In this document: one piece after another, positions 1-64,000 of the stretch | Position numbering within the stretch: position 1 is the first letter of the stretch | Layout of the letters: every line of letters begins with the position of its first letter | From: Psammoneis japonica | Lineage: Eukaryota | Reading direction: 5' to 3' | Assembly: GCA_008632985.1 (NCBI GenBank) | Contig: QPGO01000042.1 | Coordinates: forward strand, 372,001-436,000 | Length of the DNA: 64,000 nucleotides | The notes under the pieces: generated by a model | Told to the model about the DNA's origin: nothing | The model's database searches: none | Seen by the model: only the letters and a program-made list of their open reading frames with translations | Program-made: the position numbers and the translations under genes

Positions 1-178
1 GAGCAAAGACCATGATTCTGACACCCTTGACGAGGAAAATTGTCAGTTTGAAAAAATGACGCGCAGTCATTCTGAGGAATGACTTGCACCGCAAGAGGAG
101 TCTTGCGCTCTGCTGGACATTGGGAAGCCCAGAAAAAGGGCCAAAGTAATTCACACTAGTCCAGCAGTCGTCGCCCAT

Positions 179-3100
179 GTGAATGCTTCATTGGGTGAGG
201 CGAAAAACAAGCCTCCACGCATTCTCCTCGACAGCGGAACATCGTCAACCACAATTTTGCGCAAATTCACGCGGAAACTCAGAACAAAAACATCCGCCAC
301 CAAACTCTGGGAAACCAAAGGAGGGCTCTTCACGACTGATGGTCGATGTAAGATCCAATTCTCCTTGCCCGAATTTGACAAACATGAGATGATTGAAACA
401 ACGGCACATGTTGACAACTCCCCTTCTTCTTCGAGTCATTGTGACATGATCATGGGACGCGACTTAATGTCAAGTCTTGGGGACAACATTGGACTTCTCG
501 AATGAAGAGATTAAATGGGGAAGATGCAACTGCTCCCATGAAGAATGTTGACACACTCTTCGATGCCGATGTTTTTAAGTTGATTGCCGATCACATTGAG
601 GAATCTCATGCAGTGATTGGTCTTGATGACAGGGTCAATCGGATCCTTGACTCAGACTGTCACGCTGCAAACCTCAATGATGTGACCGCAGCAGCCACTC
701 ATCTAACTCCTGAAGAGCAGAAGCAGCTGAACTTCCTCTTAAAAAGATTTGAAAACCTTTTCGATGGTTCTCTGGGCAAGTGGACCGGGAAACCGGTGGA
801 TTTAAAGTTGAAATCGGGCATGAGTCCGTGTCGTGCCAAACCATTTCCCGCACCACAAGCCTTGGAGGCGACCACTCGCAAAGAGGTTGAAAGACTGTGC
901 AAGTTGAAAGTCTCAAGAAAAACAAACTGTTCTGAATGGGCGGCTCCAACCTTTGTTCAACCCAAGAAAAATGGCAGAGTTCGGTTCTTGTCCGACTTTC
1001 GTGAGCCAAGTGAGAGGTCAATTCGTGCTCCGTTTCCTCTGCCCAATGTTCAGGATGTGCTGCAGAAGCTCGAAGGCTTCATGTGTGCAACGTCCCTGGA
1101 TTTAAACATGGGACACTGTCACATCGAATTGACGCCGCGCGCACGTCACTTGTGCACGATCGTCATGCCTTGGGGCAAATGTGAGTGCTGTGGACTCCCG
1201 ATGGGAATCTGTGGAGCTCCAGATGTTTTCCAAGAGCACATGAGTGAGCTCATGGCAGGTCTGGAGTTCGTCAGAACTCACATTGACGACATGTTGTGTC
1301 TTGCAAAAGGCGATTTTCAAGACCACCTCAAGAAGCTTGAAACGGTGTTCTTGCACCTGGAACAAGCCGGATTGAAGGTCAACGCCGAGAAGCCCTTTTT
1401 CGCCAAACCCGAAGCAGACCATCCAGGCTTTCATGTCACCCGCAAGGGCATCAGCCCAATTCCAAAAAAAACAGAAGCGATTCACGCGATCGCAACTCCT
1501 GAAACTCGCAAGGAATTGCGGCGCTTTGTCGGTGTGATCAACTGCTGTCGAGACATGTGGCCTCGACGATCTCATGTTTCAGCTCCTTCAGCCAAACTCA
1601 CTTCTACCCAAGTAAAGTGGCAATGGACCGAAACAGAACAAAAAGCCTTCGAAAACATGAAGCGCATCATCTCCAAAGATGTGCTGTCATCATACCCGAA
1701 TTTTAACGCACCCTTTGAGATGTGTGCCGATGCCAGTAATTCTCAATTGGGGGCGGTTGTTACTCAGAAAAACCGACCAATTGCCTTCTACAGCCGCAAG
1801 CTGAATGGAGCGCAAACGCGTTATGCTACAACAGAAAAAGAACTATTGTCCATAGTGGAGACGTTAAAAGAGTTCCGCAATATACTGTTTGGCCAACAGA
1901 TAAATATATATACGGATCACAAAAATCTCACACACAAAAATTTCACAACGGACAGAGTCATGCGTTGGCGTCTAATAAAATAGAAGAATACAGTCCCAAA
2001 ATAATATACCTTGAGGGCAAGGCAAATATTGTCGCAGATGCGATTAGCCGACTTACTATGAAGAAAATAGAACCTATGGAAACCCTCAGCACAGAAGAGC
2101 TAGCTGAAAAGGTCCTACCAAAATCCTACGACAATGTCTTTCCGTTAAATTACAAAGTTCTTGATTATGAACAAAAACGGGACAAAGACATTCTCTCCCA
2201 ATTGTCAAATAAGACGTTTCATACGAAGACTTTTCGTGGAGGCGAGCGAGACCGGTTGCTCATATGTCATAAGGATAAAATTGTCGTCCCGAGGACGTTA
2301 CAAAAGGCAGTGATAGATTGGTATCATACGTACCTTCTTCACCCTGGCATAAATCGAACAGAAGAAACAATCTCACAACACCTATGGTGGTCCACCTTAC
2401 GTGAAGACATACGAAAATACGTGTCGAGATGTGAGACGTGCCAAAAATTCAAAAAGAAACACAAGAAATATGGACATTTACCTCCTAAGTGCGCAGAATC
2501 CGCACCATGGGAACGACTGTGTGTGGACCTTATTGGGCCATACAAAATACGTCGTAAGGGAAAGAAAAAACCCCCAGTCCTGAAATGCTCAACTATGATC
2601 GATCCAGCAACCGGATGGTTTGAAGTTGTGGAAATCCCAAATGAGGAGTCCATGACTGCAGCTGGACTGCTAGAACGAACATGGTTGAGTGGATGTCCTT
2701 GGCCATCGTCAATTGCATGTGACCGTGGAAGTGAGTTCATCGGACACCAATTTAGAGAAATGGTGCAAGATGATTGTGGCATTGAAGTCAAGCCTGTGGC
2801 TGCACGAAATCCACAAGCAAACGCAATTGTTGAACGCGTGCATCAAGCACTGGGGAACATGCTCCGTGCATTTGATTTGCAACATGCACCTCTAGATGCT
2901 GAGGATCCTTTCACTGGAGTGCTGTCAGCGGCAGTGTTTGCGGTGCGTTCCACGTGTCACACCACTGCGCAAGCTGCACCAGGTCAACTGGTCTTCAACA
3001 GAGACATGACATTTGACGTCCAACATGTCGCAGACTGGAAATTGATCCAGCAGCGAAAACAAGAAATCACAAATAAAAATGACGCTCGAGAGAATGCTCG

Positions 3101-3287
3101 ACGTGCTCCTTGCACGTGCAGAGCAGGAGAAAAGACACTGCTCGAGAAAGACTCGCAAAAATTAGAACAGCCCTGTGTTGGACCGCATGCAATGACAACG
3201 GTGCATGCCAATGGCACAGCACAGATCAAACGCGGTGACGTCATTGACACTGTCAACATTCGTCGAACAATGCCGTTTGACGACTGA
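179..3287 (+). mobile_element. Ty3/Gypsy LTR retrotransposon pol (protease-RT-RNase H-integrase), frameshifted and TA-hypermutated; 5' part lies outside the window
   Basis: Protease ILLDSGT; RT WAAPTFVQPKKNGRVRFLSDFR, LPMG and a degenerate YxDD (THIDD); RNase H DAS..LGAV, YATTEKELLSIV, YTDHKNL; integrase HPG..C..C, CVDLIGP, DRGSEF, NAIVERVH. The PR-RT-RH-INT order is Gypsy. Frame breaks near 490 and 1975. Confidence 0.95.
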
Positions 3288-3300
3288 CTCTAATGTGCAA

Positions 3301-3707
3301 TTGGGGAGGCGAGTGCAACATGCGTTGTCATGCACGCATTGTGCGTGCGTGTCCATGTGTCAAATAAAAGCACATTTCAATCGCACGTCAATCGTGGGTT
3401 CGTACGAAGCACAGATCAGTCACACAGAAGTGATCGGATGTCGAGAATCGCAAATGCGATCGTACGATGATGTTGACATCTTGTGTGTCAACATCAATCG
3501 TGTCCGGACAATCTGTCATCACGATCACATTCTCCGAAAGGCCTTTTGTCTGCAGGAGCAGTGCAAAAGGTTCAGGCTGTTGAGAACCCGTTCGGAGAAA
3601 CCCAAAATGATTGCGTGGAAATGATTCTCATAATTTTCACCTTTTGAACTTCGTTCTACTTTCGTTTGCACTCGTTCTTCGAGCATGGTGCACATGGTTG
3701 CATTGCA
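3301..3707 (+). mobile_element. Polypurine tract (3303-3313) and putative 3' LTR (~3314-3707) of the Gypsy element
   Basis: GGGGAGGCGAG directly after the integrase stop, followed by TG. Candidate end ...TGCATTGCA at 3707, after which CpG density drops. Confidence 0.55.
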
Positions 3708-6243
3708 GAAACTGAAGCTCTTGTGCTTTGAAGCATCATTTTTTGAACAACTTCATGCATGATTGCATTTTGGTGCTCTTCTGGCAGCATGTGTGGTGCT
3801 GACACACTGGCCCAAGCTCTGCCTTGTTAATTGTTGCTCAAAAGCTGGTCAAACAACACAGCCACACAAAACTTTTGCCAGCAGCTTCTTGTCTCAAAGC
3901 TGCTCTCAAGTTCATGTTGGTGCAAACATCATCGTTGGAAAACTGGAGACAATTTTCTGAAAACAGCGCTGTTTCTCAGCACCAACCTGCTGAGAAAAGC
4001 ACCAACAGCTGTTTTTGTTGGCCATGACAAATCAAGGGCAAGTCTTCATCACAAAAAAGCAGGTGCATTTAAAAGAGAGATGCTGGCTTCATGACAAGGA
4101 GCAAGACTTTTGCAGGCAACAATTTTGCCTCCAGCTGCTGTGTGACTGTCAAGAGTTTCTTGTCACTTGCTTCCCACATGCTCTGTCAGCCAAGAGCACA
4201 AGTTGGAAATGATTGTCACACCCCCATCATGTGGCTGTGCACATGTGAGTCAAACAATCCCTGCCACTTGTGGCATTTGCAAGAGATGGCTGGCAACCCT
4301 TGTGTTGTCAAAATTTGGTGATTGCAAGACATGAAATGGCAGATTTCTTGATTGCTGCAAATGCTCTCAGGGATGCTGTGGTGTGAAGAATCTTCCATGA
4401 AGCCAAGCAGTGCTTCTTGCAATGTAAAAGCAGAAGAAAGCAGCAAAAAATGATTCTTTTTTTTGCTTTTTTGGGTTGCAGGCCACAACAGGCTGTCTTC
4501 ACCCCCACCAAAGCTGCCAGCACCCTGGCTCCATGCTGCAGCTGCTGCTGTCACAAAAGCAATTGTGCACTGCCCTGTTGCTTGGCTTTGTTGATGCACC
4601 CATCTGGCCACTGCCCAGCTCAACATCATGACAATTTCCAGCTTCTGAGACTCAAGAAGCATGAGAGAGCAAGAATGTCATTTGCCAAAGAGCAGAGTCA
4701 CTTTGATGCTGCACAAGGGCAGTGTGCCATGCAGCAGCACCACTTTGCCAACTCATCCTCTTTTGTTGTTTTGGGTTGGTGCAGCACCATTTGTTGGAAA
4801 AGTTTCTCACAAAGTGTTGTCAGGCCCACACCCAGCACTTTGCAAAAGAGCAAAGAAAAATGATGGCTGCTTTGCAGTGTGTGGAAATGCAGGGATGCCA
4901 AAGCTGGCTGCTGTCTCTCACCATCATTTTGTGCACAAAAAACACAAATGGCTTGTAGTTCACACAACCGTTGCACACACAGTGCAAGGAGGTGGTGAAC
5001 ACATCATTGAGATGACAACACGCAATGAATTTGGCCAGGGCTGTCTTTCAGCTCTTGCTTGTTTGTGTTTTGGGTGCTTGTTTCCAGGGAAAAGGTTGGC
5101 ACAGAAATCAGCTGGGCAAGTGCAAATGTGGAGAGAGATCAGCATCTCATGCTGCCACCAAGCCAAGCAGTCTGCCTTGTTTGACAACTGAGACCTGGAC
5201 CCACTCCTGGATTTTTGGGTGTGCAGCAACAGTGCAAGCACATTTCAGGATGTGCCCCAATGTGATGTGTGCACACACCATGCTTCCAGCCCCTGAACTC
5301 ACTCTCAGAGAGAGGGAGCTCTGCACAACCACTCTTTGACTGTGCAAAAGGCCAGCAAGCAAAAAGTTGTCTGATGTTTCTTGTTGTCCAGATGTTTCTT
5401 GCTTGCTGCCAGGGTGAAAAAAAAGGCAGGTGCACAATTTTGGACACAAGAGTGCACAAATTCCAGAGAGCCATGATTTCTCATGCTGCTGCTGAGCTGG
5501 GTTGACAACCAAACCTTGTCAGGTCCATGCCTGGATCTGGGCACACACCTTCACAGCATGCTTGTTTGGGTGGCACACCACTTTTTTGACCTCACTCTGC
5601 ACACACAATGATGTGACAGCATCATGGCATGTGCTGGTTTGGTGCCCAGCTTGTTCGCCATGAGAAGCCAGCTGGGCACATGGGGGAACATTGTCACAAG
5701 AAAAGAACAAGAGGGTGCCTGCGCTGCACATGCTGCTGTGATGGCTGCTGTCCACCTTGCACCAAGCTGGGCCTGGGTGCTGGCCACATCTCATGCAGCT
5801 TCCATGGCAGTGCAGGAAAATGGCTGTGATCCACACCAGTCCATCTGGAGGCCAGCTGTTGCTGCACCTTCTTGCAGAGGAGGGGGCAAGGGAACCCCCC
5901 TTCCCCCCCCCCCCCCCCCCACACACACACACAACACATGAGCACAAGTGCCGGCGCCGACAGCGTGCTGGTGGAAGAGGTGGAGGGCCTTTCAACCACC
6001 CATTTTTGTTGCAAGAACAACAAAAACTTGTGGCCTTGCTCTCTTTGAGAAGACCTCAGAGAGGACTTCAGAACGCGGTGGGGCCCTGACATCCACAGCC
6101 CCCACAAGACTTGCTGCCGGCATTGCTGCAAGTGAGCGGCAGCAGTTTGCCATCTGCTGAAGGACATGCGCGCCAATCCTTGCTTGCTTGCCTTGCTTCA
6201 CCCATCACAATCACCATCCACAGCCCCCACATGAGACTTGCCA

Positions 6244-8078: not shown

Positions 8079-8403
8079 TGGGGCCCTACATACGAGTGAG
8101 CGGCGGCGCAGTCTGTCTGCTTGAGGGACGTGCGTGCCAATCCTTGCTCGCTTGCCTTGCTTCGTCCGTCATAAAAATCATCATCATCCCCACCCCGCCC
8201 GCCCCACCCCATCACAGGCAAACACCGGTGTTGTACGGTACCTAGGTACCGTACTGTAGTTGTTGCAAGAGCACATAGGTTCAGGTATTACTACTTGTCC
8301 CGGTTCCCGGTGCTAAGTACCAGCGAAGGAAGAGTGAGCAGGAGGGAGGAAAAGCCTCGAATCAGGACACTAGAAAAGACAGAGCTCACCATCTTCATAC
8401 AAC

Positions 8404-11400
8404 ATGGGCAAGCCCAAGGAGGATCGTTCTGGCTGGGTAGCGGTAGCTCCCGAATTTGCAGAGTCGACTGCCGAGGGACCCGCAATCCGTCCTGCGCAAT
8501 CGGCGTATCAGATCTTTCAAAAGGATGTGACGCCGGCAGTACGGGAGGAAGTATACAGCAAGTGCGGAGGAAAGTTTGAGCTAGCTGAATTCACCAAAGC
8601 AATCCATGCACGATGGAATGCCTTGGATGTTGTTCGTAAGGCTCGATATGAGGATCTGGCTCGCGAAGATGCTGCACGTTTTGCCAAGGAAAGCCACCAA
8701 GCCGACATTGAGCAGCTTGAACGACAGAATCGACGAAGGCAAGAACGGGAGGAGCTCATTCTAGATGATGGAACACAAGGACGAAGCACCAGAAGGAGTA
8801 GGAAGAAGCAGAAGAAGAAACAGGAGCGCCTCGAGCGAAAGAAAAAGCAGTCAAACCAGCAAGACGGATCTTCGTCTGATCCTCAGACAGACCCGGACTT
8901 TCACGACACCGGAGACTCTTATGACAGTGATGACTCCTCTTCCTATGACTCGGATGATAGCGACCGTCCTAAAAAGAAGAAGGTGGCTCCCCGGCAAGTG
9001 AGTCAAGCTGTACTTGAACGACGAGAAAAGGCGCGACAAGAGAAGGAAGAGAAAGAGAATTACATTGCGCAACGACAGGACGAGCTCCGACTTGATCGTG
9101 CGGCTCAGGCGAAACGACGACTGGATTTCCTCCTCAAACAGAGTGATATTTTTAGCCACTTTGGCAAGGTTGAAGAGGATAGAGCACGCCTTGTCAGCAA
9201 GAAACCGATTCGACGCGCCGAATCATCGGTCGAAACTGGGACTTCTCGACGTGCTGATTGCACGGAAGACGCTGAAGGAGTTGACGCGGAGGATATGGAT
9301 CAGGGGGATGAGCATAAAGCCACTTTTCTTACCGCACAACCGTCGACTTTAAGCCATGGAAAAATGCGTGAGTATCAGTTGGAGGGTCTCAACTGGATGA
9401 TCAGGCTTCAGGAAAACGGGGTTAATGGCATTCTAGCCGACGAAATGGGATTAGGCAAGTGTCTAGCAGAACAGAATCACGCAACCAATTCTGAATCAAC
9501 ACTCCTCACGTCACATGTCTTTTTTTTGTTTCGTAGGCAAAACGTTACAGTCAATTTCTATTCTTGTATACATGATGGAATACCAGAGTTGCAATGGACC
9601 GCACTTAATCGTCGTCCGAAATCTACGTTATCGAATTGGATGGGAGAGCTCGAACGGTGGGCCCCAACTCTAACTGCGGTAAAGTTCCACGGAAGTAAGG
9701 AGGAACGCACTGACATTGCGGAGAACGTTCTGCAGCCTGGGCAACGCGACGAAGACCGAGCTTGGCACGTATGTGTCACCACATATGAGGTTTGCAATAT
9801 CGACAAGAACGTGCTAAACAAATTTGCTTGGTCATATCTCATCATTGACGAAGCCCATCGTCTGAAGAACGAGGCATCTACGTTCTCGCAGACAATCAGG
9901 ACATATGAAACCCGATACCGTCTCTTACTTACGGGTACTCCGCTTCAGAATAATCTCCATGAGTTGTGGGCTCTCCTCAACTTCCTTGTGCCTGACGTCT
10001 TTGCTAGTTCGGAGCAGTTTGACGAATGGTTCAATCTAGACATTGATGATGCGATGAAAAGAATAAGCTCATTTCTCAGCTGCACAAGATTTTGAGACCC
10101 TTCATGTTGCGGCGTCTAAAAGTGGATGTCGAGAAGAGTCTTCCTCCAAAGCGCGAGACAATTCTTTTCACTGGAATGTCTGCAATGCAAAAGAAACTGT
10201 ACAAGGATATTTTGTTAAGAGACATCGACATGATTCAAGGAGGCGGAGGTTCAGGAAGCCGCACTGCGATTCTAAATATTGTCATGCAGCTTAGGAAATG
10301 TGCCGGACATCCCTACTTGTTCCCTGGAGTGGAAGATCGGTCGCTTCCTCCCCTTGGTGAGCACGTTGTGCAAAGTAGCGGAAAGATGGTCCTATTGGAT
10401 AAGCTGCTGAAGCGTCTGAAGGAAAGAGGACACCGAGTCTTGCTTTTCACTCAAATGACAAGAATCTTGGATATTCTGGAGGACTACATGATTATGAGAC
10501 AGTTTCAATATTGCAGGATCGATGGAAACACGAGTTACGAACTCCGAGAAGACAGCATTGATTCTTTCAACGCTCCAGATTCAAAGAAATTCATCTTTCT
10601 ACTTTCTACCCGTGCCGGTGGCCTTGGCATCAATCTCCAAACAGCTGATGTCGTCATTCACTTCGATTCAGATTGGAACCCGCAAGCCGACTTGCAAGCG
10701 CAGGATCGTGCTCATAGGTATGAAGGTTCATTGGTTCTTTCCGTGTCCTCGAATGTCGCCTGAACTGACTGAACGTACTATTCTTGCTGTTGTAGGATCG
10801 GACAAACGAAGGAAGTTCAAGTGTTTCGGTTCGTTACGGAGCACACAATTGAAGAAAAGATCGTTGAGCGTGCCCAGCAGAAATTGAAGCTCGATGCAAT
10901 GGTTGTGCAACAGGGACGCTTAAAGGATAAGGATAAGCTCTCCACGTCACAGCTGCTGGAGGCTGTGCGATTTGGCGCTGACAAGGTGTTCAAAACAAAA
11001 GACTCGTCCATCACTGACGATGACATTGACATGATTTTGGATGCGGGTGAACGAAAGACGCAGGAGATCAACGAAAAGTTGAAGAATGCCGAGAAAGGGG
11101 ATATGTTGGATTTCAAACTCGATGGCGGTATCTCAGCACAGACCTTTGAAGGCGTCGACTACTCGGGTAACGCCCTTGCGCAAGCGAAAGCGGAGCAAGC
11201 TCAGGCCCAACTGCTTGGCATGCTCGACATTGGAAAACGCGAACGCAGAACCGTTGCCAACTACAACGAAAACCAACTGTATCAGCAACAAATTCTTGCT
11301 CTACAAGGCGGCGCGGTGAAGGAGCGAAAGAAAAAGCCCAAGCGACTACCCAAGGGGTTGCGACTTCCCCGAATGGAAGAGTGGCAAATGTATGACAGGG

Positions 11401-13418
11401 CTCCACTCCAGAAGCTGCAAGAAGAGGAGGAGAAGGGATTTCGAAGCCTACCTGAAGAGCAACAGAAGATGGCTTATGCCAGAGATGGGAAAAAGTCAGA
11501 GACCGGAGAGGCCGATGGTGTGTCGGCAGAGAAAGAAACGTGCGCTGATCTCAGCGTTTTGCCTCCGTTACTAAGCGAGGAAAAACTGGAACAGAAGGAG
11601 GCGTTGCTCTCTGAAGGCTTTGCAGAATGGGGAAGGCAGCACTATTCTGCATTTGTCAAAGCCAGTGCCAAGTTCGGGCGAAACAACTTCGAAAAAATCT
11701 CACCAGAGGTAGGAAAGCCGCAGAGTGCGGTGGAGGAGTACGCCGCAGCATTTTGGGACGAGAACGTGGGAAAGAAGCGATTCTCTGAACATGAATACGA
11801 ACGCGTGGTAAAGTTGATTGAGCGAGGAGAGCGAAAGATTGAGGAGATTAAAGGGCTTGAGCGAGCCACGGATGTTCTTGTATCTCTCTTCGACAACCCT
11901 TGGGCTGAACTAGAGTTCATTCACGTGAATTGCAAAGACAAAATGTTCAGTGTTGACGAAGATCGACACTTACTCTGCTGGACACGAAAGGTGAGAATCA
12001 ACCAATGGTATGATGTCGCTTACAATGTAAGACATTGAAAACTGATTTCTGTGGCGTTTCCTGTATTCCTTCAACTGAAAGTATGGATACGGCCAATGGG
12101 GTGCTGTTAAGCTGGCAATACGACGAAGCCCCGATTTTCGTTTCGATTATTTCCTCCGCAGCTTGCCAGTGGAACTTGTCGGGAGGAGGTGCGAACAACT
12201 AATGAAGGCGGCAGAACGCGAAGTTGAACAGCTAGAGAGATCTGTGCGAGAGGAGTTGGGGTTGCCCCCAGCAGACGAGAAGAAAGATGAAGAAGTGACC
12301 AATGACTCTGTAGAGCGTCAACCGGTAAGCGGTGATCAATCACAATCTCTCCCGATTGAGATTCCAATGTACAAAGTGGCAATGGCGAGGAAGAGAGTCG
12401 AGACTCAGAAGGCCGCAGAATCAGAAAGAAAAGAGCTAGAACGAAAGGTAGAAGATATCGAGAGAGATATGCGCAACATACAAGAACGTTTGAAACAGTT
12501 GCAAGAACACAGCAAGGAGCAAGATGTTGGCACCTCCTTGTTGACAGCTGAGTTTCCAGACGAACTAGTTCCCAACTTAGCGAATCTTCTGGCTAGAAGT
12601 GGTCCAGCTGGGATGGTGTCGGTTGCGAATTCCTTCTCTTCTGAGCATCCAGGGCGAGTAAGTAAGAGAAAGATTTGTTCCAAGATCGAGGATATTGCCG
12701 TGAAGGAGAAACGTGAAGAAGATGGCGACACAAAGCCCATGTGGTATGTACGAGAAGAGTACGCACATTTGCTTGACGCCGACACCCTGCGACACATGCG
12801 AGAAGCTAAGGAAGAAAGGCTTCAGAAGATGCAAGAGAGCAAGGCAGATAGCGTGGACTCAGGCGGAATCGACGATGAAGACCAAGCCGATGAGGCTGAC
12901 TTCAATGAAAATAGCGGATGCGTAGGTCCAGATGGAACTTTCGTTTTGTTTCCCGAGTACGACGGTAAAGAGCCTCCCCGGGAGTGCAAAAAAGCTTTTA
13001 CTCATTTCTGCAATGCCACAAGAAAAGAAATTAAGGCCGCGCTTGATCCTTCTGTGCGGAAGGACAAGGTACGTAACCAAGCGTTGTCGCGCTGCTTCTT
13101 CTGTCGTTCTTCTACATCATCTCATTCGTTTCAAACTATCTTTAGAAAAAGGTTAACTCGATGTTGAAGCAAAAGTGGTTCTCACTAACGGAAGACGAGA
13201 AGAGTAAATGGAAAAAATGGGAAGCGTGGGATGCAAAGCGATTTGATCGCGATGCGGCGATACACGAGAAGTACGACATTACGCAACATGCTTCTGCGGC
13301 TAAAGCTGTTGAAAATACAACACAAAATGCAGTGTCGCAGATGCACATTCCTAAGAAGCGGACGGGGGATGCAGCGACAGGTTTGTCTTCTATTCCAAAA
13401 AAGAGGCGATCGTCGTGA
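8404..13418 (+). CDS. ISWI/SMARCA5-type SNF2 chromatin-remodelling ATPase with HAND-SANT-SLIDE and N- and C-terminal HMG-box-like regions
   Basis: Motifs [62 protein letters not shown] and a SLIDE-like FRFDYFLRS. Introns 9455-9536 (GC-AG), 10718-10795, 11991-12081, 13069-13145. Two apparent 1-bp deletions (~9617, ~10052). Confidence 0.93.
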
Positions 13419-19644: not shown

Positions 19645-19974
19645 CAAGTCCGCACACTTTTATCTTGGTTTTGCCAGTACTAATATAATGTTAAAAGAGG
19701 GTGATTGTTGAAGCCTTAACATACATAGTGTCTACTAATAGCTAGGATTCGGACACAAACACACATCTCTCTGTCTCTAGCTTTAGATCGCGCATCAACT
19801 AAAACAAACTTTCTACAAAACTCAGGAGATCGGACCCTCATATGCTAAAGAAGTAGTCATCCATTCGATCGATCTCATCGCGAGAAGTTCAAAGTAGATC
19901 AACTGCCTGCTGCCCGTGTGATTGAATGTGCGCGTTCCGTCGTCAGCACGCATTCTGAATTCCCGCGCCAACGA

Positions 19975-20350
19975 GCGGTTCAGCACGCGGACCATTGGAG
20001 CCAAACTGGCTGCCAATTCCAACTGATTGGGCCCCGTAAACATCTCGGACGGCATGATTTCTCCAAAAAACAAAACCAACGTGACAGAAAGGATCACAGC
20101 CACGTGGCTTCCTGCTGGCGAGTCAAAAAAGAGTGGAAGGGCTTCGTTGGCAATCGAATTCAAGAGCAAGAGTGATGCGAGTTGCAGGTGATGTTGCTTG
20201 ACAATCGGCAGCAGTCTCTGGGCCAGATGCTTTTCCTGGGGACTCGCCGCCACTCAAATCTTGATGTGAAGCAACAAAGGATTGATGCTGAGAAGTCCCA
20301 TGGTCAAGCCAGCAGCCAAGGCAGCCATCATGACACAGACAGCAGCCATT
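19975..20350 (-). pseudogene. CNNM/DUF21 transmembrane-domain gene fragment, frameshifted and TA-depleted
   Basis: AALAAGLTMGLLSI..., HHLQLASLLLLNSIANEALPLF, VILSVTLVLFFGEIMPS..FTGPNQL match the CNNM/DUF21 consensus. No downstream CBS domains are visible. Confidence 0.8.
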
Positions 20351-20899
20351 GAGGCGCTGCAAATGTAAAGCTGTTTTGTCCTTGTCAGTTGCCTCCTCCT
20401 CCACCAGGCAGCAAGCTCTGCTCCGATGAACATGGAGGAATCTCATCACCCAACATTTTGCACTTGCCAGCAGATTCTTTGTTTTTGTGACACAAAAACA
20501 TTGCACCCACGGATTCCAACAATGCAACAGCATCACGAACATCCTTGTCATCCGCTAAATCAGCATGTTGTGCTCAGGCATTGAATCACTTCGGCGTTGC
20601 ATTTTCTGGCGGCCGATGAACTGAGAATGCAACCAAGTCCACAGCAGCGATTCTGGCAAAAGAGAAGTGCCAATTGGTGGCGGCAATCACAAGTGGAAGC
20701 AGCAAGCAATTCCCAGCTGTTTGCTGCAGCATGAACATGAAACCGGGAGCTCCTCATCATCTTTTCATCACTGCTTGTGTGTGCCATTGGCAGGGGTCTG
20801 TGCCACGCAATGGACTGATGCACATGGACAACAGGGAGGTTGCTCAACAATTCACCTTTTAGAAGACTCTTCAGAATGACACCCAGCATTTTGCGCACA

Positions 20900-21160
20900 A
20901 AACTTGTGGAAAAGGCTTGATTCGATCAGATGCGTCTTTCTCTTCATCGGCCCAAAATGAGATCGCAAGAGAGAATGCAGGAACAGCTTCAGACAAGGGA
21001 TGGCATTCACACAAAAAGCAAAGCTCATGATGCTTGTCAGGATCGGAGCCAAAACCAACTGCCAATGCACAAAGCATCAAGTCCTTTGTTGTGTGGGTTG
21101 CCTTCAACTCGACCAAACGTCTCAAATCTGAGTTGACCGCTTCCATCACTGCCCATCTCA
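20900..21160 (-). pseudogene. Fragment resembling the N-terminus of an MFE-2/MaoC-type enoyl-CoA hydratase 2
   Basis: HTTKDLMLCALAVGFG...LCFLCE.HP...AVPAF resembles YT.RD..LYAL.VG...L.FLYE..P.F...PTF with Tyr replaced by His/Cys. Confidence 0.6.
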
Positions 21161-21678
21161 AGAATGCGCTTCTCTCTCTCTTCTTTGCTTGTCTGCACGA
21201 GAAACGAAAATCGATGACAAACCTTGTTGATCTTGCTGCGATGCCTCAGTGGATCACCTGCCCACAATCTCAAGGAATGGCTCGGCTCATGTCACACCGA
21301 ATGAGGCGCTGACGACAACTTAGTGCACTGGGAGTGTGGGTTAGCTTGTTGCCGGAGTTGCAGGGTGGAAGCGTAGCAGCACTTAAAATTAGATTTTGGG
21401 TTTTGTTTTAGCATGTACGGTAGGCTAGTAGAGTAGAGAGAGGTGCAACGTTCGCAACACCGTTCATGCTAGCTGCACACATGGTCATCGCAACGTTACC
21501 CCCTTGCAGTGACAACAGCGCGCTTTTCATGCTCGCATCGCGCATCGCCTCCAACAGAAAAATGGTGCTAACCTTACCGGTGAACCAACCAAACTCAAAA
21601 CAACAAGAAGACATTGGGTTGCTATCCCGACCTCCTTCTTCCCATCTCTCTTGCCCGACGATTTGAAGAATCTTCATC

Positions 21679-24489: not shown

Positions 24490-27400
24490 CAATTATTGGT
24501 ATTTTTAGTCATTGCCCAACGCCAATGGAGACCAGGACATTAAAAAAACGGGTGACAGCGCGCACGCGCAAAGAAATCCACAAAATTCCGATTCAAAACA
24601 CAACCAACCGTCACCTCCATGACCGTCAGTTTGTTGCGTCCGTCTCATCCCGTAGTCTGCATTGTTGCTGTATAACACATCATAACTCCACTTCATCCGC
24701 TATGGAGATAAAAGGCTGCTGATTACTGGCTTATCACTTTCTCCATAAAGATGGAATGTCGTTTGATGACTTATGCACCATTTTTCGGCACGGAGCGACA
24801 GTGCGTGGCAGGTAGAGACGACTCGTTTATTGTATGTTGACACCAACTGGCTTGTCTCGGAAATGTAGCAATCATATCAATGGACTTATCATTGGGAAGA
24901 GGCAGCAGTGTAAGTGGCAACCGTGTGCCTTGTTGCGTGCCAGCAGTTGTGTGTGTCTGCACTTGATCAATTGATCAACCAGCAATTGATTCACCTGTTG
25001 CTTTGGATACACTTCTTTGTTATCCCACGTAAGACATATGGAGTGGGCTTTGTTAAGAATTCAGACGTTGCCATGGATCAGAAGACTGTGTTTCTAAAGA
25101 ATCTTCCGTGTCAATGATGGCGCACTACTTGTTGCAGACAATGGTTTCATGGATGGCACACGTGACGTTGCAATTCCGGATGGCATATACGGGTGGCATA
25201 TTTCTTGGTTCAAAGCATGAGCATGGAGCAGACAGCGGCTCTTTACTTGGAACCACACTTGGCCGTTCCAACAGCATTGATGATGGCGCACCACTCGGTG
25301 CAGACAATGGATTCATGGATGGCGCACGTGATGGCACATCACTTGGCATTGCGGATGGCATAGGTGATGGTACATTACTTGGCACGGAAGATGAAATTGA
25401 TGATGGTGTAGCACTTTGACTTCAAATGGGGAGAGGAGTGTTGATAGAACCGCTGACCGTTTTATGGATGGTACCTCACTAGGTTTAAATGGTGTTGGAC
25501 GTGTTGCACTAGCAGATGGTGGCATTGGGCATGGTGTAGCCGGTGTTGGGTGTGTTGGACGTGTTGTACCAGTGCATGGCAGTGATCAAGATGATATCCT
25601 TGGACTGGACATTGAATGTATGAGTCGAAGACTTTCGGGTCCAGAACAACGTTCGAAGCGTAGCTCTGGATGGACCGAGTATTTAAAACGGGGCGGAACA
25701 CTAGACGACGTCATGTTTGGACCAACGAAGATCCAAATGACACCGTCTACCACATTGGATTCCTATTTTCTATCGCGCTGTGGTAAGCAATCACCGTGTC
25801 AATATCCCCACAGCAATGGCGTGGTACAAGAGGCGTTTCCTATAAGCCATGCTGCGAATGAATCTTCCAAGACAACGTACGTGGTGGACATTGAAACGTC
25901 AAGGATGGATTTTGCAATTTCCATTATTACAGAATTGGATGCTTTTCGGGATCCATGTGGTTAAATGAAGGAAGATCGATCTTGGTTCTGGGACTGTTGT
26001 GGCTTTGGCAAGGCGCCGGAAAACTCGACGAAGTACGAAGGCAAGGGAATTGACTCGGGCCAACAAGTCGGTGCAGTAGAGAGTAGATAAGACTCGGATG
26101 ATCCTAGTGACAGAATGTTAACAAGTGACAAACACACATGCTAAAGATGGATAGGTTTACTGTCCATGTCTCGGAGCTGTCGGGACATGTTTAACGTGGC
26201 ATCAAGGTCAACTCGACAGTGCCATGCCGTTGAACAATCGTGTGACACATGGCTTTCCAGGCTAATTTTATGCCCAAGCCTACACCATAAATGTGCATTG
26301 TTAATAACTGCTTCTTTTTACTGACAATAAGAGAGTTGTTTTGATCTTGTTGTATCTAACAACCTTGTCACCTGCCATTCTCGTAACCGCTTGATGTTAT
26401 GGAGGCTTTTGACATTTCGGATCTTTCAATCACGTGTTCAATTCGGTACACACTCGACAATTCCAGGGGCATTAAGTTGTTGCGTTTCCTCGCCCGCTCC
26501 AATAAATTCGCCTCGTGCAAGACACAATCAAAACAAGAATATGAAGCCACCAGCAGCCCATGCTCCCACCGGTGCAATCACGGTTTCAATTCCGTACACA
26601 CTCGACAACTCCAGGGCGTTGAGTTGCTGCGTTTCCTCGCCCGCTCCAATAAATTCGCCTCGTGCAAGACACAATCAAAACAAGAATATGAAGCCACCAG
26701 CAGCCCACGCTCCCACCGGTGCAATCACGGATTCAATTCCGTACACACTCGACAATTCCAGGGCGTCGAGTTGTTGCATTTCCTCGCCCGCTCCAACACA
26801 TTTGCCTCATGCAAGACGCAACCGAAACAAGAATATGAAGTTGCTAGCAGCCCACGCTCCCCATCTACGCCATGCCCATTGCCACCCACGCCACCATCTG
26901 CTGGTGCAACACATCCAACGCCGACTGGTGCGCCGCACCCAATGCCAAATGCACCACCATCTGCCAGTGTAACACGTCTAACACCGCCTTGATTGCTGGC
27001 AGTGCACACGCTCCAACCGCCTCGACCAGCGCAGCAGCCACACAGGCTCCCACCGCCACCAGTGCCAGCAGAGTAACCAGGCTACCACTGCCACCAGTGC
27101 CAGCAGCACACAGCACAAGAGCAGGCACCGCAAGAAGATAGAAGGATCCAACCACCTCGATTGCTGGCAGTGCACACGCTCCAACCGCCTCGACCAGTGC
27201 TGGCAGCCACACAGGCTCCCACCTCCACTGGTGCCAGCAGCAACCAGGCTCCCACTACCACCAGTGATGCCGTCCACAAATCCATCAGCTGCACCGACTG
27301 CGCACAACCTCCCAGTCCAACGGTGTGGGTCCACTGACAAGATTGCTTTGTTTCCGAGACAAGCCAATTGGCGTCATCCATCATCTGAAACAAGCAACAC

Positions 27401-28105
27401 ACCAGCAACTGCGTGACTCCATCATCTGTTCCGAGCAGGGCGCTGTCGTCGACACTGTCGGAACCACCAGGTGTGGTCCCAAGTCCATGCTCATACTTTG
27501 AACCAAGCAATGTGCCATCGGTTTCTCACAAAATCACAAGTGTCGACACAGAAGATTCTTTAGAAACGTAGACTTCTGACCCAAGGCAACAAATGAATTC
27601 TTAACAAAGCCCGCTCCACACGTCACACGTGGGACACTTGTGTTAGAAGCAAAAGACAAAACAGGTGATGGTTGCCACTTGCGCCACTGCCTCTTCCTGA
27701 TGGCATGGGTCCACTTGCACGATTCATGTGTTTCCGAGATGTGCCAGTTGGTGTCAACATGCAACAAACGAGTCGTCTCTGCCACATGCCACAACATGCA
27801 CCGTCGCTCTGTGCCGCAAAGCAGTGCATGAGTCATCAACCGATGTTCCTTCTTTCTCGAGAACGTGACACACCAGTGATCGGCAGCCTTTCATTCCCAC
27901 AGCATGTGAAATGGGGTTCTGATGTGTCAAACAGCAACAATGCAGACCACCGGGATGAAACGGACGCAACCAACTGACAGTCATGGTGACGGTTGGTGTT
28001 TTTGAATCGGGAATTTTTGGGATTTCTGTGCGTGTGCGTGCTGTCACCCGTTTTTTAAATGTCCTGGTCTCCATTGCACACAAAGTGCGATGCTAAAGAT
28101 GCCTT
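24490..28105. repeat. Large inverted duplication (arms ~24490-25575 and ~26860-28105) of a degenerate PS/PT-repeat secreted-protein gene and its 3' flank
   Basis: caatggagaccaggacattaaaaaaacgggtgacagc and gctttgttaagaattca occur in both orientations. Relic peptides include PSDVPSRAPSMNP and PPSASATRPTP. Confidence 0.85.
26437..26860 (+). repeat. Tandem repeat, three copies of a ~147-bp unit
   Basis: ttcaatt..gtacacactcgacaa...aaacaagaatatgaag starts at 26437, 26585 and 26732. Confidence 0.9.
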
Positions 28106-28333
28106 TCAGTCGTGCCCGAAACCTGGAGCCAGCCAGCTTTGGCAGAACGCACGCACCATTCCTCCTCCCCTCCTTGCATGGTCTCAGTGGGCAGTTCAAA
28201 ACTGAAGTTACAACATCACATGTCACCTCTCTGCTCATGCTCTTCAGTTCTTTTTTACCCTCTGCATGGACACCTCTTCCCACCCCATGTCTGCAAAAAA
28301 CAATGTTTGCTCTGTGTCATGACAACACACATC

Positions 28334-28593
28334 GGCCTGTTCCAGCTCCAGGTGCTCCGCTTGGGTTCGATTCCCATCATTTGGAAATTTGTGCATTTGG
28401 CGCAATTGACTTTTTCCAAATCCGTTTTTTGCCAAATCGAAGGGTGAGTGTACACTTTGCATGTATTTTTGGTTGTACACTCACCTTTCGATTTTCGAAA
28501 CGATCAAAATTGAAGGAGTTGATTGCGCTAAACTGCGCAGAAAATCGGCCTCTCGCGTGATGAAAAGCAGATCACCTGGAGCTGGAACAGGCC
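28334..28593. mobile_element. 260-bp fold-back / MITE-like element
   Basis: Perfect 21-bp terminal inverted repeat GGCCTGTTCCAGCTCCAGGTG (28334-28354 / 28573-28593). Nested internal inverted repeat aaatcgaagggtgagtgtaca / tgtacactcacctttcgattt. Confidence 0.7.
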
Positions 28594-31500
28594 CATCATG
28601 CTGCTCCTTGTGCACCCCTCCTCTGCTCCTGCAACAAAGCTGTTTCAACACCTGCCCTTGTGCTTTCCCTCGTGTCTCTGCTTCTGCTCTTTGGCTCTTT
28701 CTCAGTTTAAAAACATGGAAGGGACCATGTGGTTCATGATGTGGAGAGAAAAAAAGAAAGATGAGTGAGAAATGACTGCACAACCAAGGAGAGGAGGATG
28801 TCCAACAAGCTTCTTGTGTGCGGTGGTGGTGGCTGTGCAGCTGAAAAAAGAAAGAGACCAACAAGAGCAAACCTGTGGATGAGAATGCTCCAGCTGGAGG
28901 GAGACATTCTGGCGAGGAAAAAGCAAAGATTCTGCCACTTGTTGGGAAGAGAAAGGCAGAGAAGATAGAAAAAAGAGCTGTTGGCTGGCTTCTGGGAGGT
29001 GCCATCTCCCACCCACAATCTTCGACAGTGGGGGCAGGGTTTGTTTGCTCAATTGATCACACCGGAACAAGCAAAACTTCTTGCTGACTGATCTGTTGCT
29101 TCTTAAACTCATGAGAAGTTCAGTCTGCATCAGCTGCTGCCAAGCTTGAAAAGAAGACCACCTCACATGTTCACATGGCAGCAGTGGGAGCAGCACAGAG
29201 CAGCTGGCTTTGTGGCTCGGGGAGCTCCCCAAACCAGGTCTCCAGAGGCAAGCCCTCCAGGGTGGTGCAAAGTGCAAACAGTTGACAGGCATCAGTTGGT
29301 GCCTGTTTTTTTGTTGCCCTTGAGTTTCCTTTGGAGGATTGGACTCTGACATGGTGCCCAAAAGCTCACCAGCACATTCAGCCAGCAGCAGCACCAGTGT
29401 TGTTGTCACTTGGCACACTGCCACACTTCCATGCAAAATTCTTCACAAAAACCTGTCAAGACAAGGCAATGGCGATGCTCCTGTTGTGCCCACGGTTGTT
29501 TTTGGCACCACTTGAGCACCCCTGTTTGCCTGTGCCACACTTCCCACAGCACTGCACTGTGCTGCCATCACTCCCTCCTGTTGTTTTGGGTTCACAGAAG
29601 GCATTGTGTTTGCAGCTCATTTTCAAGGGGTCAACTGTTGTTGAAACAATCTTCACAACCACCACATGCAGTGCTGCATTTCTCCACATGTCACATGACT
29701 TTCTGCTCATGTTCTCATTGCCACTCTGCAACTCCCTGTGGCAGCAGTTTTTTTTTTCAAATGCCACCAGCTGCCAAGTTGACAATGCCAACAACTCAAG
29801 ATGTGGCCTTGTTGTAAAAACACCATTTCAAACACAAAGCTTGCTCAAAAAATGCAAGTGCCTTCCCAGCATGTTGAAGAGCAAATCAACATCCCAAAGT
29901 CAGTTGGCACACCCTGACTTCATGAACCAAGACAGACACATCCTTTGACCCAGCAATGTCAGCTTGAAAGCAACGGCGCAATTCTGTCCACCAGAAAATG
30001 TACATTGTGTTTGCTCAACAATGGTTGATGGCAACAGCATTGACACCACCACTGTTGTCCTCATTGACTGGCTCAAGGGGGGTCATGCTGCTTTCCAAAG
30101 AAGCAACCCTTGATGCGCTGTTTCTTCAAAGAGAGTCACATCCCTGGCATTGCCATGTGCAGCATTTCCTTTGATGGATCATGTGGACAAACACTGTCAG
30201 CATTGCTGCCACCAGAAACCTCTGCTTTGGAGCTTGAAGTGCCAACCTCAGCTCTGTCAACTTTGCCAGCAGCGTGCACAGTTTAGCTCACTTTTTCTCC
30301 CAAGCCACAAAGGCAAATGTGGAAGACATTGCCATTGTGCCACCCGGCACCAAGAAGTTTGCTTGTGCACTGGGGGTCTGATGTGCAAATGTCAGCTTTG
30401 CTTGCACCCATTTTTGCAAGTGCACTGGATCCCAGGAATGTGCTGCAGACTTGACATGGAGAAACCAGGGCATCTGCACCCAGCAGAGCACCTTCCAAAT
30501 TTTCTCAATTTCTGCAAAGAGTCCAGATCAGAATCTCCAACACATCACCCAAGTGGCAACATGGAAAAAGAAGAGTCACAGGATCAAACAGCACATTGCA
30601 CAAAAAAGCCATGCATCAGAATGCTGGCAGCACCACCAAGAAATGCAATGGATCTGGGGCACACTCCAGCTCTGGACAGGACCTCGCAGCACTGGGCTGC
30701 AACAGAATGGTTTTTGATCATCCTCAATGCAGAAGCTGCACACACATCATTTCTGCATGCACTCTTTTACAAAGCTGTTTTGTGTGCTGCCACCATTTTG
30801 GGAAGCTGACAGAGTTTTGTTTCAATCATTTCTGAGAAGAACAAAACCAAGCTGGCTGCATGTTTTGCGACATGCATGAAGAGCACAACTGAGCACACCA
30901 TGAGAAACAACACACACACACTCACCTCAAGTGCACATTGATGACTTGCTCAAGATTGCAAAATTGTGTCTTTTTCCATTGGCAGTCATTGATTGTCATT
31001 TGTTTCCCAGTGACTTGTCACATGTGGTGTCACAACCAGGGTTGGAGAGCAATGAGCAAAGGGGGCACCCCCTCTTTCACAGCAAGAGGGCATCTTTGCC
31101 AGCCCCATGGCTGACAACATGGTGCGACAAAAGCGCCCATCAGCACCATGCTCACAACTCCCAACAGCACTCATGTCATTTCTCTCACCTTGTGAGCTGA
31201 TGTGGAGCCACACCCACTTGTAAAATGGACTCAGAGGTGTCTCCAGGTCCTTTTGAGGTCCAAGAAAAAGAACAAAGAATGCAGTCCACAATGCCTTGTC
31301 AATGCCTTGGCTTGGGTGAAGAAGTTTTCACAATCAACAGAAGCCAAAATGGATTTTTGCCCACATTGTCCTGGCACAACCAGCTTCTTCAAGTCCAAAG
31401 TCAGCAGAGTTGTTTGTGTCACATCATCATTGGCGGCAACACACAACCCTCAAGAACCCCCAGCCAATGCATGGCACTCTCTTTTGACAGCATTGACTGC

Positions 31501-32586
31501 ATTTCCAAGCCTTTCATTGGCAGTCATTGCCTGGGTGCAATGGGTGTGACATGAAATTTGGCAGGGATGCTGGCGGTGCCTCACAACAATGTGAGAAAGT
31601 GTGCTCAACACACACAAGTTCTGCGCGCCATTTTTGCAGCATGTCTCCCCATGCTCAAATCCATGAGCACCTTCCATTGCAAAGAAAAATGAATCTCACT
31701 GTGTAGAAGAAAAAGCTGCTGTGCAATCAAGAGAGAGCAACACTTTGAGATTGGAGTTTGCAGCTTTGTCAGAACAGCCCATGTGTGTCTCCCCCCTCCT
31801 GTGCCCTGCTCCCAACCAGACCAGAGACAGGTGGGCAAGATGACAGATGGGGTTTGGGGCTGACACCAGCACTTTTACAAAGACCAAATTTGCAAGCAGT
31901 CCTTGCACACAAAATGGCACCCAACATCTTTTGAAGGCTGTGGTGGGGCTGAGCACAATTTGCACTGTGGTGTTCGAGCACAAAACATGCCAAATTTTGA
32001 GTTGTGCCTCAGCCACTTTTTGGTTGGGATGCCATTGACTCCTGACCAACCAGCTCACTGTTGTTTTCTCACATTTTGAGGTCATTAAAACCAAACATTT
32101 GAGTGCCAGCTGCTTTTATCTTGCAGCTGTTCACCTGAGTCTGTGCACACAGCATGATGTGGCACTTCTTTCCATTGAGAAATGTCGGGTTCTGTGCACA
32201 GTGTGGCTCATTGTAAACAGTGCACACAACTGGATTTTGTGCTTTTTGCAAGCAGCACTCACTTTCAAACTGGGGCAAACTGGGGACCAAACAACTCAAC
32301 CTCCTTGACTCCACCCCTGACAAGGGCAATCACATGATGCAAAAAGCCCATGCTTTTGCTGTGCTGTTGTTAAAAATTGGTGCCTGACAATGAAAATCTC
32401 TTCAGCTGAAATGTCCTGCATGGTCATTTGCAGCAGAAGCTGCTCAGAGAATGGTCGCTGAGCCTGGGATTGTTGTTTGCCTGAAGTGATCAAGGAACTC
32501 ATTCAATGTCCACAATCAACTTTTCATTTTCCTGCCATTGAGCTTCTTCCTGAGAAAAAATCCCTTTCTTTTTGTTTTTTGCTCAT

Positions 32587-35360: not shown

Positions 35361-35669
35361 CTGGCAACAAAAATCCCAAACGCAGAGAGGCAGACTTTTG
35401 TCAGCAAGCAGCCATGGCTGGGGAAGTCCCCCGATTTTGTCCAGCTGGAATGCATTGGGAGTAAAATCCACTTCCAACAATGGCTCCAGTCCATGTGGAG
35501 CCACTCACCACACATTGACAAGCCTGTGGTGAAGTTGCACTTGCATCCAGTGGCATCTTGCTGCAACAGACTTCCATGTTGAATGTCGATTTCAATGCTC
35601 TTGGTTCAGGCAATTGCACTGACAAACACTCAGACAACATAAATCGTGAGACATGGAAACTCGAAACTG

Positions 35670-60018: not shown

Positions 60019-60103
60019 TGATCTCCTGCACACTTCAAGCCAAATCCACCTCAATGAAGGTCAAGTGCAGAACAAAAGTCTCCAAGAACATGGAGTGCAT
60101 CTC

Positions 60104-60927: not shown

Positions 60928-60929
60928 TT

Positions 60930-63990: not shown

Positions 63991-64000
63991 TCTGCGAGCC

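What the first reader, a model, noticed from the sequence alone, without database searches (positions are those of the whole stretch)
1690..2580. Sharply bounded ~900-bp unmutated island inside the hypermutated retrotransposon
RNase H and the integrase N-terminus keep abundant TpA (8 in 1861-1920 alone) and Tyr (AFYSRKL, YTDHKNL, WYHTY, KYGHL). Both flanks of the same pol have none. After GPYKIRR the integrase has no Tyr (IACDRGSEF, STCHTT, QPCVGPH). This internal control shows the element was natively TA-rich and that mutation acts in tracts. Possible causes are processive or homology-limited mutation, gene conversion from a young copy, or a chimeric assembly.
Basis: partly seen in the sequence, partly recalled or inferred. 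Interest (0 to 1): 0.75.

Follow-up and report, generated by a model that had tools for sequence, protein, structure and literature searches.

The report
Spared patch in hypermutated diatom retrotransposon
In a diatom, a process that rewrites TA to TG or CA has wrecked a jumping gene except for one 0.9-kb patch; the same patch is untouched in about four in ten sister copies and wiped out in most of the rest, which suggests that the mutator is switched on or off block by block along the element.

Summary
The island is real: 58 TpA in 1690-2580 (65/kb) against 7-9/kb in the flanks. It lies in a young Ty3/gypsy copy in a diatom. Each family copy carries its own TpA>TpG/CpA changes on both strands, made after insertion. 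Corrections: the flanks keep a few TpA, and the edges fade over 100-250 bp; only 1830-2490 is clean (40 of 40 sensitive sites). Among 31 copies this block is nearly on/off (12 spared, 14 converted, 5 between), with right edges clustered at 2469-2642. A second block (about 2800-3550) switches separately. Island lineage markers match each copy's own converted siblings in 11 of 12 (4.75 expected from a random donor). That argues against paste-back from an unrelated copy and against mis-polishing. Spared tracts also lack CpG decay. Best reading: a stable local protection, probably an unmethylated chromatin patch, against a TadA-like DNA mutator. The mutation type is in print for Bigelowiella natans, and this scan noted it many times elsewhere in this genome; I found no description of position-fixed on/off blocks. 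No long reads were available.

The parts
1690..2580 (+). TpA-rich island (block A) covering RNase H, the linker and the integrase zinc-binding domain
   Evidence: 58 TpA; HMM spared tract 1737-2594
1830..2490 (+). Clean core of the island: 40 of 40 sensitive TpA sites kept, once shared lineage variants are set aside
1605..1830 (+). Left transition zone with kept and converted TpA sites mixed
2490..2600 (+). Right transition zone; 11 right edges of spared tracts among the copies fall in 2469-2642
1..1604 (+). Converted protease-RT part of the same element (2 of 45 sensitive sites kept in 1-1400). The element continues upstream of the window through gag to the 5' LTR at about -1488..-1110 (L031 about 8512-8890), whose outer part is a second spared tract (17 of 17)
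2600..2780 (+). Integrase-core stretch converted in most copies (0 of 9 kept here; mean retention 0.20 over 31 copies); it separates blocks A and B
2780..3550 (+). Block B (integrase C-terminus to the first part of the 3' LTR): converted here (4 of 50 kept), spared in 9 of 31 copies
964..1434 (+). Reverse transcriptase domain (PF00078), Tyr-free
1699..1974 (+). RNase H-like domain (PF17917)
2286..2456 (+). Integrase zinc-binding domain (PF17921)
2502..2813 (+). Integrase core (PF00665, below its curated cut-off); the island's right edge runs through its start
3314..3692 (+). 3' LTR; differs from the 5' LTR at 33 of 376 positions, 32 at TA sites and 1 at a CpG
3693..3696 (+). 4-bp target-site duplication, the same four letters as before the 5' LTR
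1972..1980 (+). 2-bp insertion found only in this copy (frame break inside the island; assembly error not excluded)

Best explanation
The island is original sequence that was left alone in place, not sequence put back later. SHOWN: the element inserted; afterwards its TpA steps were changed to TpG or CpA, on both strands and independently in each copy; the change is near-complete or near-absent block by block, and the blocks sit at recurring places in the element; the same blocks that escape TpA change also escape CpG decay. INFERRED: the mutator is an adenine deaminase of the TadA/ADAT2 kind acting on DNA (A to inosine, read as G), working slowly over many cell divisions. It is recruited to, or can only reach, silenced CG-methylated chromatin. 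Silencing starts at fixed hot stretches (gag-protease-RT and the integrase core), and the stretch between them is in one of two inherited states, silenced or open. In this copy block A stayed open for the whole time that its flanks went to about 94% conversion. Confidence 0.7 is for 'spared in place by a stable local state'; about 0.4 for the methylation link being causal; about 0.45 for a TadA-like enzyme.
For: Direction and both strands: over 248 sites in 30 copies, TA 3111, TG 2025, CA 2005, CG 34; Tyr columns of outside homologs. After insertion: LTR pair 32 of 33 differences at TA sites in this copy; 578 of 682 over 27 copies. Independent per copy: of 516 pairs only two near-identical pairs share their TG/CA pattern; mean z 0.1, sd 1.1. 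On/off blocks: block A 12 copies with at least 37 of 39-40 sites kept, 14 with at most 11, 5 between; block B 9 spared, 20 converted, 2 between; 11 right edges within 200 bp against 4.9 expected, p 5e-5. Not pasted from a random copy: island markers equal those of the nearest converted sibling in 11 of 12, random donor 4.75, p 1e-4; Mantel r 0.50 in spared and 0.53 in converted copies. Clock not reset: transversions plus non-CpG GC>AT private changes 22 in 33,695 spared bases and 73 in 94,846 converted bases, ratio 0.85, 95% interval 0.50-1.38. Methylation link: CpG decay 38 of 2130 in spared against 402 of 5795 in converted state, while non-CpG GC>AT is equal; 27 matches to the cytosine methylase family in this genome; CG methylation of transposons depends on DNMT5, an orthologue of a maintenance enzyme, in P. 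tricornutum (PMC9998398, passages). Many rounds: no strand coordination at 3-200 bp. Enzyme hint: relative rate TAC 1, TAT 0.57, TAG 0.40, TAA 0.33, best well-sampled context TACG, as in the UACG motif of bacterial TadA (PMC12296453, passages).
Against: No methylation, chromatin or RNA data were available; CpG decay is only a proxy, and a recent overwrite would lower it too. Inside block A alone the clock has little power (2 neutral private changes in 6527 spared bases against 5 in 7594), and private changes may include assembly errors. For block B the lineage test is weak (4 of 9 against 2.0, p 0.07). Left edges cluster only weakly (7 in 200 bp, p 0.05) and edges are rounded to TA sites, which inflates clustering. 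I found no sequence feature that explains why these blocks: CpG density is not lower in them, and there is no long inverted repeat. The many-rounds argument assumes that hits on opposite strands segregate at replication. A preference for TACG could also come from the adjoining CpG. No enzyme was identified; the deaminase set looks ordinary in number (9 matches).
Confidence: 0.7

Rival explanations
1. Paste-back: the block was converted like the rest and later overwritten by gene conversion or cDNA recombination from an unconverted copy of the same sub-lineage.
For: It would explain near-zero TpA change and low CpG decay together. Neutral private changes are nominally fewer in spared block A (2 in 6527 against 5 in 7594).
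Against: A random donor is rejected for block A (11 of 12 against 4.75). A converted recipient differs from every donor by about 6-8% at TA sites, far more than lineages differ, so a lineage-faithful donor choice has no obvious basis (inference). Five island haplotypes occur among 12 spared copies. The pooled neutral clock is not reset (ratio 0.85). Edges are graded.
Confidence: 0.2
2. Assembly artefact: the island was collapsed or polished in from unconverted copies.
For: Contigs of the only sequencing run cannot phase island and flanks, and that run may be the assembly's own source. The copy has four indels of its own.
Against: Both ends share one target-site duplication. Island markers follow the flank lineage rather than the commonest haplotype. 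Unconverted island pieces have read depth 6.1, 9.0 and 10.4 times the unique flank, against 6, 7 and 11 assembled copies that carry them. Partly converted edges with private letters are not what overwriting gives.
Confidence: 0.04
3. Homology-limited mutation as in fungal RIP: only the parts that pair with a partner (for example a deleted copy lacking block A) are hit.
For: A conserved 20-mer of the integrase core has 50 exact matches against 37 for one in the island and 39 for one in RT; 2 of the 12 extra loci (L090, L096) have lost much of block A.
Against: The extra matches are mostly older full-length relatives or scattered fragments, not a family of hot-zone-only derivatives. Every block has at least 37 partners. 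Block A and block B are spared in different copies. In B. natans a single-copy region is hit.
Confidence: 0.04
4. Error-prone patch resynthesis by a polymerase-eta-like enzyme near decaying methyl-CpG (the WA>WG signature is recalled, not from a call).
For: It would couple TpA change to CpG decay and could give adjacent same-strand changes at TATA.
Against: Non-TpA A>G changes are rare (1.2 per kb) and sit mostly before a pyrimidine (84 of 114), not after A (37 of 114); transversions are not raised. This rival concerns the enzyme and does not explain the island.
Confidence: 0.05

Closest known systems
TpA hypermutation of integrated viral DNA in Bigelowiella natans (Mettrop et al., bioRxiv 10.64898/2026.01.13.699255; abstract, Results and Discussion read, supplements not seen)
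   Same: A>G and T>C only at TpA, on both strands, in foreign-derived DNA, about a thousand times above background; reverse transcriptase domains are among its TpA-depleted genes; an ADAT2-like enzyme is proposed but unproven.
   Different: A different host lineage (diatom). There the units are 25-186-kb viral regions and the variation is between cell lines; here it is near saturation in a multi-copy retrotransposon, with on/off blocks under 1 kb at fixed places, a 3' context order and coupling to CpG decay, none of which appear in the sections read.
Repeat-induced point mutation (RIP) of ascomycete fungi (features recalled; search listing only)
   Same: Dense, dinucleotide-specific transitions that ruin repeats after insertion, linked to cytosine methylation.
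   Different: Opposite direction (RIP makes TpA from CpA); here no one-strand tracts and no sign that pairing sets the limits.
TadA/ADAT2 tRNA adenosine deaminases and TadA-derived adenine base editors (PMC12296453, passages)
   Same: A>G with a 5' T/U, best context TACG/UACG; paired same-strand changes at TATA resemble bystander editing (the latter recalled).
   Different: Natural TadA acts on tRNA; no diatom enzyme has been tied to the DNA changes here.
DNMT5-dependent CG methylation of diatom transposons (PMC9998398, passages)
   Same: CG methylation concentrated on transposons, kept by an orthologue of a maintenance enzyme, which could carry a patchy state through many divisions.
   Different: Described as silencing only; the passages seen mention no mutation and no on/off blocks inside elements.

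Membership tests
Ty3/gypsy LTR retrotransposon | Two LTRs flanked by a target-site duplication | tested here: met
   LTR pair of about 379 bp and a 4-bp duplication
Ty3/gypsy LTR retrotransposon | pol order RT, RNase H, integrase | tested here: met
   PF00078, PF17917/PF17919, PF17921, PF00665 in that order
Ty3/gypsy LTR retrotransposon | Aspartic protease before RT | tested here: inconclusive
   No Pfam hit for 83-502; a D-S-G motif is visible in that frame (motif recalled)
B. natans-type TpA hypermutation | A:T>G:C changes confined to TpA, on both strands | tested here: met
   TG 2025, CA 2005, CG 34, other 36; 83 of 98 differences to L008 in 2561-3560 are TpA>TpG/CpA
B. natans-type TpA hypermutation | About a thousand times above background, local, host genes spared | tested here: met
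   About 94% of sensitive sites in the flanks against 0.8 neutral changes per kb; gene regions keep 36-43 TpA/kb
B. natans-type TpA hypermutation | Arises de novo during clonal growth, in some lines only | not testable with these tools
   Needs mutation-accumulation lines
B. natans-type TpA hypermutation | Hits single-copy foreign DNA | not tested
   Only a multi-copy family was studied
Fungal RIP | C>T at CpA (gain of TpA) | tested here: not met
   Direction is TpA loss
Fungal RIP | Limits set by paired homology | tested here: inconclusive
   No matching derivative family; partner counts differ little
ADAR-type editing of element RNA fixed by reverse transcription | A>G on the transcribed strand only, before insertion (LTRs alike) | tested here: not met
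   Both strands equally; LTRs differ at TA sites
Ectopic gene-conversion tract | Tract carries a donor's haplotype, different from the flanks' lineage | tested here: not met
   11 of 12 match their own converted siblings
Ectopic gene-conversion tract | Neutral private changes reset inside the tract | tested here: inconclusive
   Pooled ratio 0.85 (0.50-1.38); block A alone 2 against 5
TadA/ADAT2-type DNA deamination | Preference for T-A-C(G) | tested here: met
   TAC>TAT>TAG>TAA; TACG highest of the well-sampled contexts
TadA/ADAT2-type DNA deamination | An identified enzyme that deaminates adenine in DNA | not testable with these tools
   TadA-like genes exist but nothing ties them to the changes

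The most novel reading that the evidence does not exclude
Diatoms run a natural adenine base editor on their own chromosomes, guided by inherited chromatin state. Each transposon copy holds sub-kilobase blocks that are locked on or off for something like 100,000 or more generations, so the TpA pattern of the assembly is a permanent written record of past epigenetic states, readable copy by copy. The editor opens only a few bases at a time, which is why the two adenines of TATA are changed together on one strand (TGTG or CACA 86 of 106, TGCA 5 against 51 expected, 7 sites).
Probability: 0.3. Interest if true: 0.88.

Novelty: new variant of a known kind. Interest (0 to 1): 0.62.

Why it matters
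TpA-directed A:T>G:C hypermutation is in print for one alga, in a preprint, with neither enzyme nor targeting rule known. This family gives 31 natural replicates of one 5.2-kb substrate. They show that targeting is finer than 'the repeat' or 'foreign DNA': it is decided block by block, at recurring positions, and goes together with CpG decay. That makes the targeting question directly testable: spared and converted versions of the same block sit in one genome and can be told apart on single long reads, together with their methylation. If the enzyme is a TadA relative, it would be a natural counterpart of engineered adenine base editors. If the paste-back rival is right, the result is more ordinary (recurrent gene conversion among transposon copies).

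Tried and rejected
Sequencing runs: 3 listed, 1 holds the stretch, contigs only, no RNA holder listed; no listed piece spans island and flank, so phase was not tested. One contig piece (666-726) differed by a letter and was left out of the depth comparison. Two of five 20-22-base patterns were badly chosen (one search covered a TA-capable site, a minority allele) and give no copy number. Homology dose: no support. Inverted repeats: only short imperfect pairs in two regions (the second region was given without regard to that copy's orientation and is shifted by about 260 bases). CpG density as the cause of the blocks: not lower in spared blocks, lowest in the hot integrase core. Nearness to host genes as the cause: block A is spared in copies with fully depleted flanks such as L033, L038, L046, L068, L070. 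Long one-strand tracts: none. The promoter scan uses bacterial consensus and is uninformative here. A against B: 2, 10, 7, 7 copies, Fisher p 0.11, Spearman -0.44; not claimed as exclusion. Protein search gave no organism names. Enzyme search: 9 matches to PF00383, no expansion. Literature: searches for diatom + TpA + transposable elements + mutation (5 papers), RIP/diatom/hypermutation/dinucleotide (29 papers, 20 listed), TpA/hypermutation/retrotransposon/adenine deaminase/algae, diatom + TpA depletion (1 unrelated) and diatom mitotic recombination/gene conversion (4 listed) showed no description in diatoms; listings only, and the library lacks most subscription papers. Rows dropped: 9 of 55 loci (under 84% identity or under 2 kb aligned) from the map; 13 more (84-92%) from the statistics; L067 and L083 as near-duplicates of L072 and L071; the 12 loci were only compared, not counted; 7 sites with lineage-shared letters were set aside and 9.

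Full report
Observation. The stretch 1690-2580 holds 58 TpA (65/kb). The left flank 1-1689 holds 12 (7/kb) and the right flank 2581-3290 holds 6 (8.5/kb). A two-change-point fit puts the limits at 1692 and 2556, and 0 of 200 shuffles came near. All Tyr codons of the two pol frames fall between 1693 and 2541. So the contrast is real, but the flanks are not TpA-free.

What it sits in. The host is a diatom (24 matches to the silicon transporter family). The element is a Ty3/gypsy retrotransposon of about 5.2 kb with RT, RNase H, integrase zinc-binding and core domains in that order, LTRs at about -1488..-1110 and 3314-3692, and one 4-bp target-site duplication on both sides. It inserted into older DNA poor in both TpA and CpG. 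The window has six TpA-depleted domains at 3-6 TpA/kb, between gene regions at 36-43/kb. This copy has four small indels of its own, one inside the island.

The family. I fetched 55 loci from three searches (fetched). 46 were mapped, 33 are at least 92% identical to the window copy, and 31 remain after dropping one of each of two near-identical pairs. All copy statistics below use these 31 unless stated.

Direction, strand and timing. At 248 sites where at least two of the first 30 copies show TA, the states are TA 3111, TG 2025, CA 2005, CG 34, other 36. One site giving both TG and CA fixes TA as the starting state. Outside proteins agree: where most homologs have Tyr, the window keeps Tyr at 9 of 12 columns in the island and at 0 of 15 outside, with Cys or His at 9. 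The two LTRs of this copy differ at 33 of 376 positions, 32 at TA sites and 1 at a CpG; over 27 copies 578 of 682 differences are at TA sites. The choice of TG or CA is not shared between copies, apart from the two near-identical pairs (516 pairs). The change is therefore in DNA, on both strands, after insertion and separate in each copy. That excludes editing of the element's RNA.

Anatomy of the island. Of 73 TA-capable sites in 1690-2580, 57 are TA. Five of the others are shared variants of the lineage, and 11 are conversions at the margins. In the core 1830-2490, 40 of 40 sensitive sites are kept, against 2 of 45 in 1-1400, 0 of 9 in 2600-2780 and 4 of 50 in 2930-3500. The upper bound for the core is 7% converted, against 94% in the flanks, a difference in rate of about 40-fold or more. 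Edges fade over 100-250 bp.

The same block recurs. Block A is kept almost whole in 12 copies, nearly gone in 14 and intermediate in 5. Block B (about 2800-3550) is kept in 9, gone in 20, intermediate in 2. The outer part of the 5' LTR is a third such block. Of 37 spared tracts of at least 400 bp, 11 end within 2469-2642 (4.9 expected, p 5e-5) and 7 begin within 2775-2932 (p 0.05). The integrase-core stretch between them is converted in most copies. A and B are spared in largely different copies (2 both, 10 A only, 7 B only, 7 neither). Gag and protease-RT behave differently, with many intermediate values.

Artefact? Only contigs of one run were available, possibly the assembly's own source. 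Unconverted island pieces have 6.1, 9.0 and 10.4 times the depth of the unique flank, and 6, 7 and 11 assembled copies carry them. The junction contig has about half the flank's depth, so the read-based counts may be up to twice as high. With the matching target-site duplication and the lineage test below, a chimera or mis-polish is unlikely, but it was not tested with long reads.

Spared or pasted back? Variants outside TA sites mark sub-lineages. Among the 12 copies with block A spared there are five island haplotypes. In 11 of 12 the island markers equal those of the nearest converted sibling as judged by markers outside; a random donor gives 4.75 (p 1e-4). For the window copy, the two nearest copies outside the island also have its island haplotype. 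Neutral private changes are about as dense in spared as in converted sequence (ratio 0.85, 0.50-1.38). Against this: block A alone has too few such changes to decide, the test on block B is weak (4 of 9 against 2.0), and a donor from the same sub-lineage cannot be excluded.

What marks the blocks. CpG decay follows the TpA state: 38 of 2130 CpG observations in spared tracts against 402 of 5795 in converted ones; private CpG transitions 0.45 against 1.48 per kb, while non-CpG GC>AT changes are equal at 0.36. The simplest reading is that converted blocks were CG-methylated and spared ones were not (inference). In P. tricornutum, transposon CG methylation depends on DNMT5, the orthologue of a maintenance enzyme (PMC9998398, passages), which could preserve a patchy state; this genome has cytosine methylase genes, not typed further. 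CpG density, inverted repeats, nearness to genes and partner number did not explain the blocks.

How the mutator works. TG and CA outcomes are intermixed, with no same-strand excess from 3 to 200 bp. If hits on opposite strands segregate at replication, this needs on the order of 100 rounds or more. At the B. natans rate (210 changes, 6169 TpA, 3132 generations) 90% conversion takes about 200,000 generations, so the protection must be long-lived. The 3' base matters: TAC 1, TAT 0.57, TAG 0.40, TAA 0.33, and TACG is the best well-sampled context, matching the UACG motif of bacterial TadA. One exception to independence: at 7 isolated TATA sites the double changes are TGTG 42, CACA 44, CATG 15, TGCA 5, against 19, 25, 10 and 51 expected, which suggests two same-strand hits in one encounter (few sites). 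No enzyme was identified.

Comparison and novelty. It works like the TpA hypermutation of B. natans (preprint; abstract, Results and Discussion read; supplements not seen and they may hold context data). It meets the two defining features that could be tested. It is not RIP and not RNA editing. My searches found no description in diatoms. This scan has noted the process, the T-A-pyrimidine preference and spared patches many times in other parts of this genome. What this finding adds is the fixed position and on/off behaviour of the blocks, the lineage test against paste-back, the coupling to CpG decay at block level and the TATA pairing.

Verdict. A real island, most likely spared in place (0.7); a new variant of a recently described kind; interest 0.62.

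Noticed in passing
L031 about 8512-8760 (window about -1488..-1250): The outer part of this copy's 5' LTR is a second spared tract (17 of 17 sensitive sites kept) while the same part of its 3' LTR is converted.
   Followed up: yes
family copies, TATA sites: Double changes at TATA are mostly on one strand (TGTG or CACA 86 of 106 at 7 isolated sites; TGCA 5 against 51 expected), though no strand coupling is seen at 3 bp or more.
   Followed up: partly
window 3665-3728: The read-derived contig over the 3' junction has depth 32.5 against 58.6 for the unique flank, so the insertion may be on one chromosome of the pair only.
   Followed up: no
family copies, flanks: Most copies sit in DNA that is already TpA-depleted on one or both sides: either insertion preference, selection, or spread of conversion into the flanks.
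   Followed up: no
window 1935, 2059, 2183, 2220, 2963, 3329: Some TA/CA or TA/TG variants are shared by many otherwise spared copies, so they predate these insertions; mildly converted ancestors may have kept transposing.
   Followed up: no
L041, L093, L096: More diverged relatives (87-88% identity) also keep block B unconverted while the rest is converted.
   Followed up: partly
L104 313-1785 minus (G000:C79): One open frame holds a zinc deaminase domain followed by a 2-oxoglutarate dioxygenase (PF14226, PF03171); probably a metabolic fusion, not tied to the mutation process.
   Followed up: partly
L114 (G000:C301): A cytosine methylase reading frame lies in TpA-depleted DNA (4.5 TpA/kb), so methylase-bearing mobile or foreign DNA is hit too.
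   Followed up: no
window 19901-21300, 27101-42200, 54601-61700, 62101-64000: Four more TpA-depleted domains; seven long Tyr-poor frames from them gave no informative Pfam match.
   Followed up: partly
window 8374-12038: Host gene of the ISWI/SNF2 type (HMG box, SNF2 and SLIDE domains) with normal TpA, right after the depleted domain.
   Followed up: no
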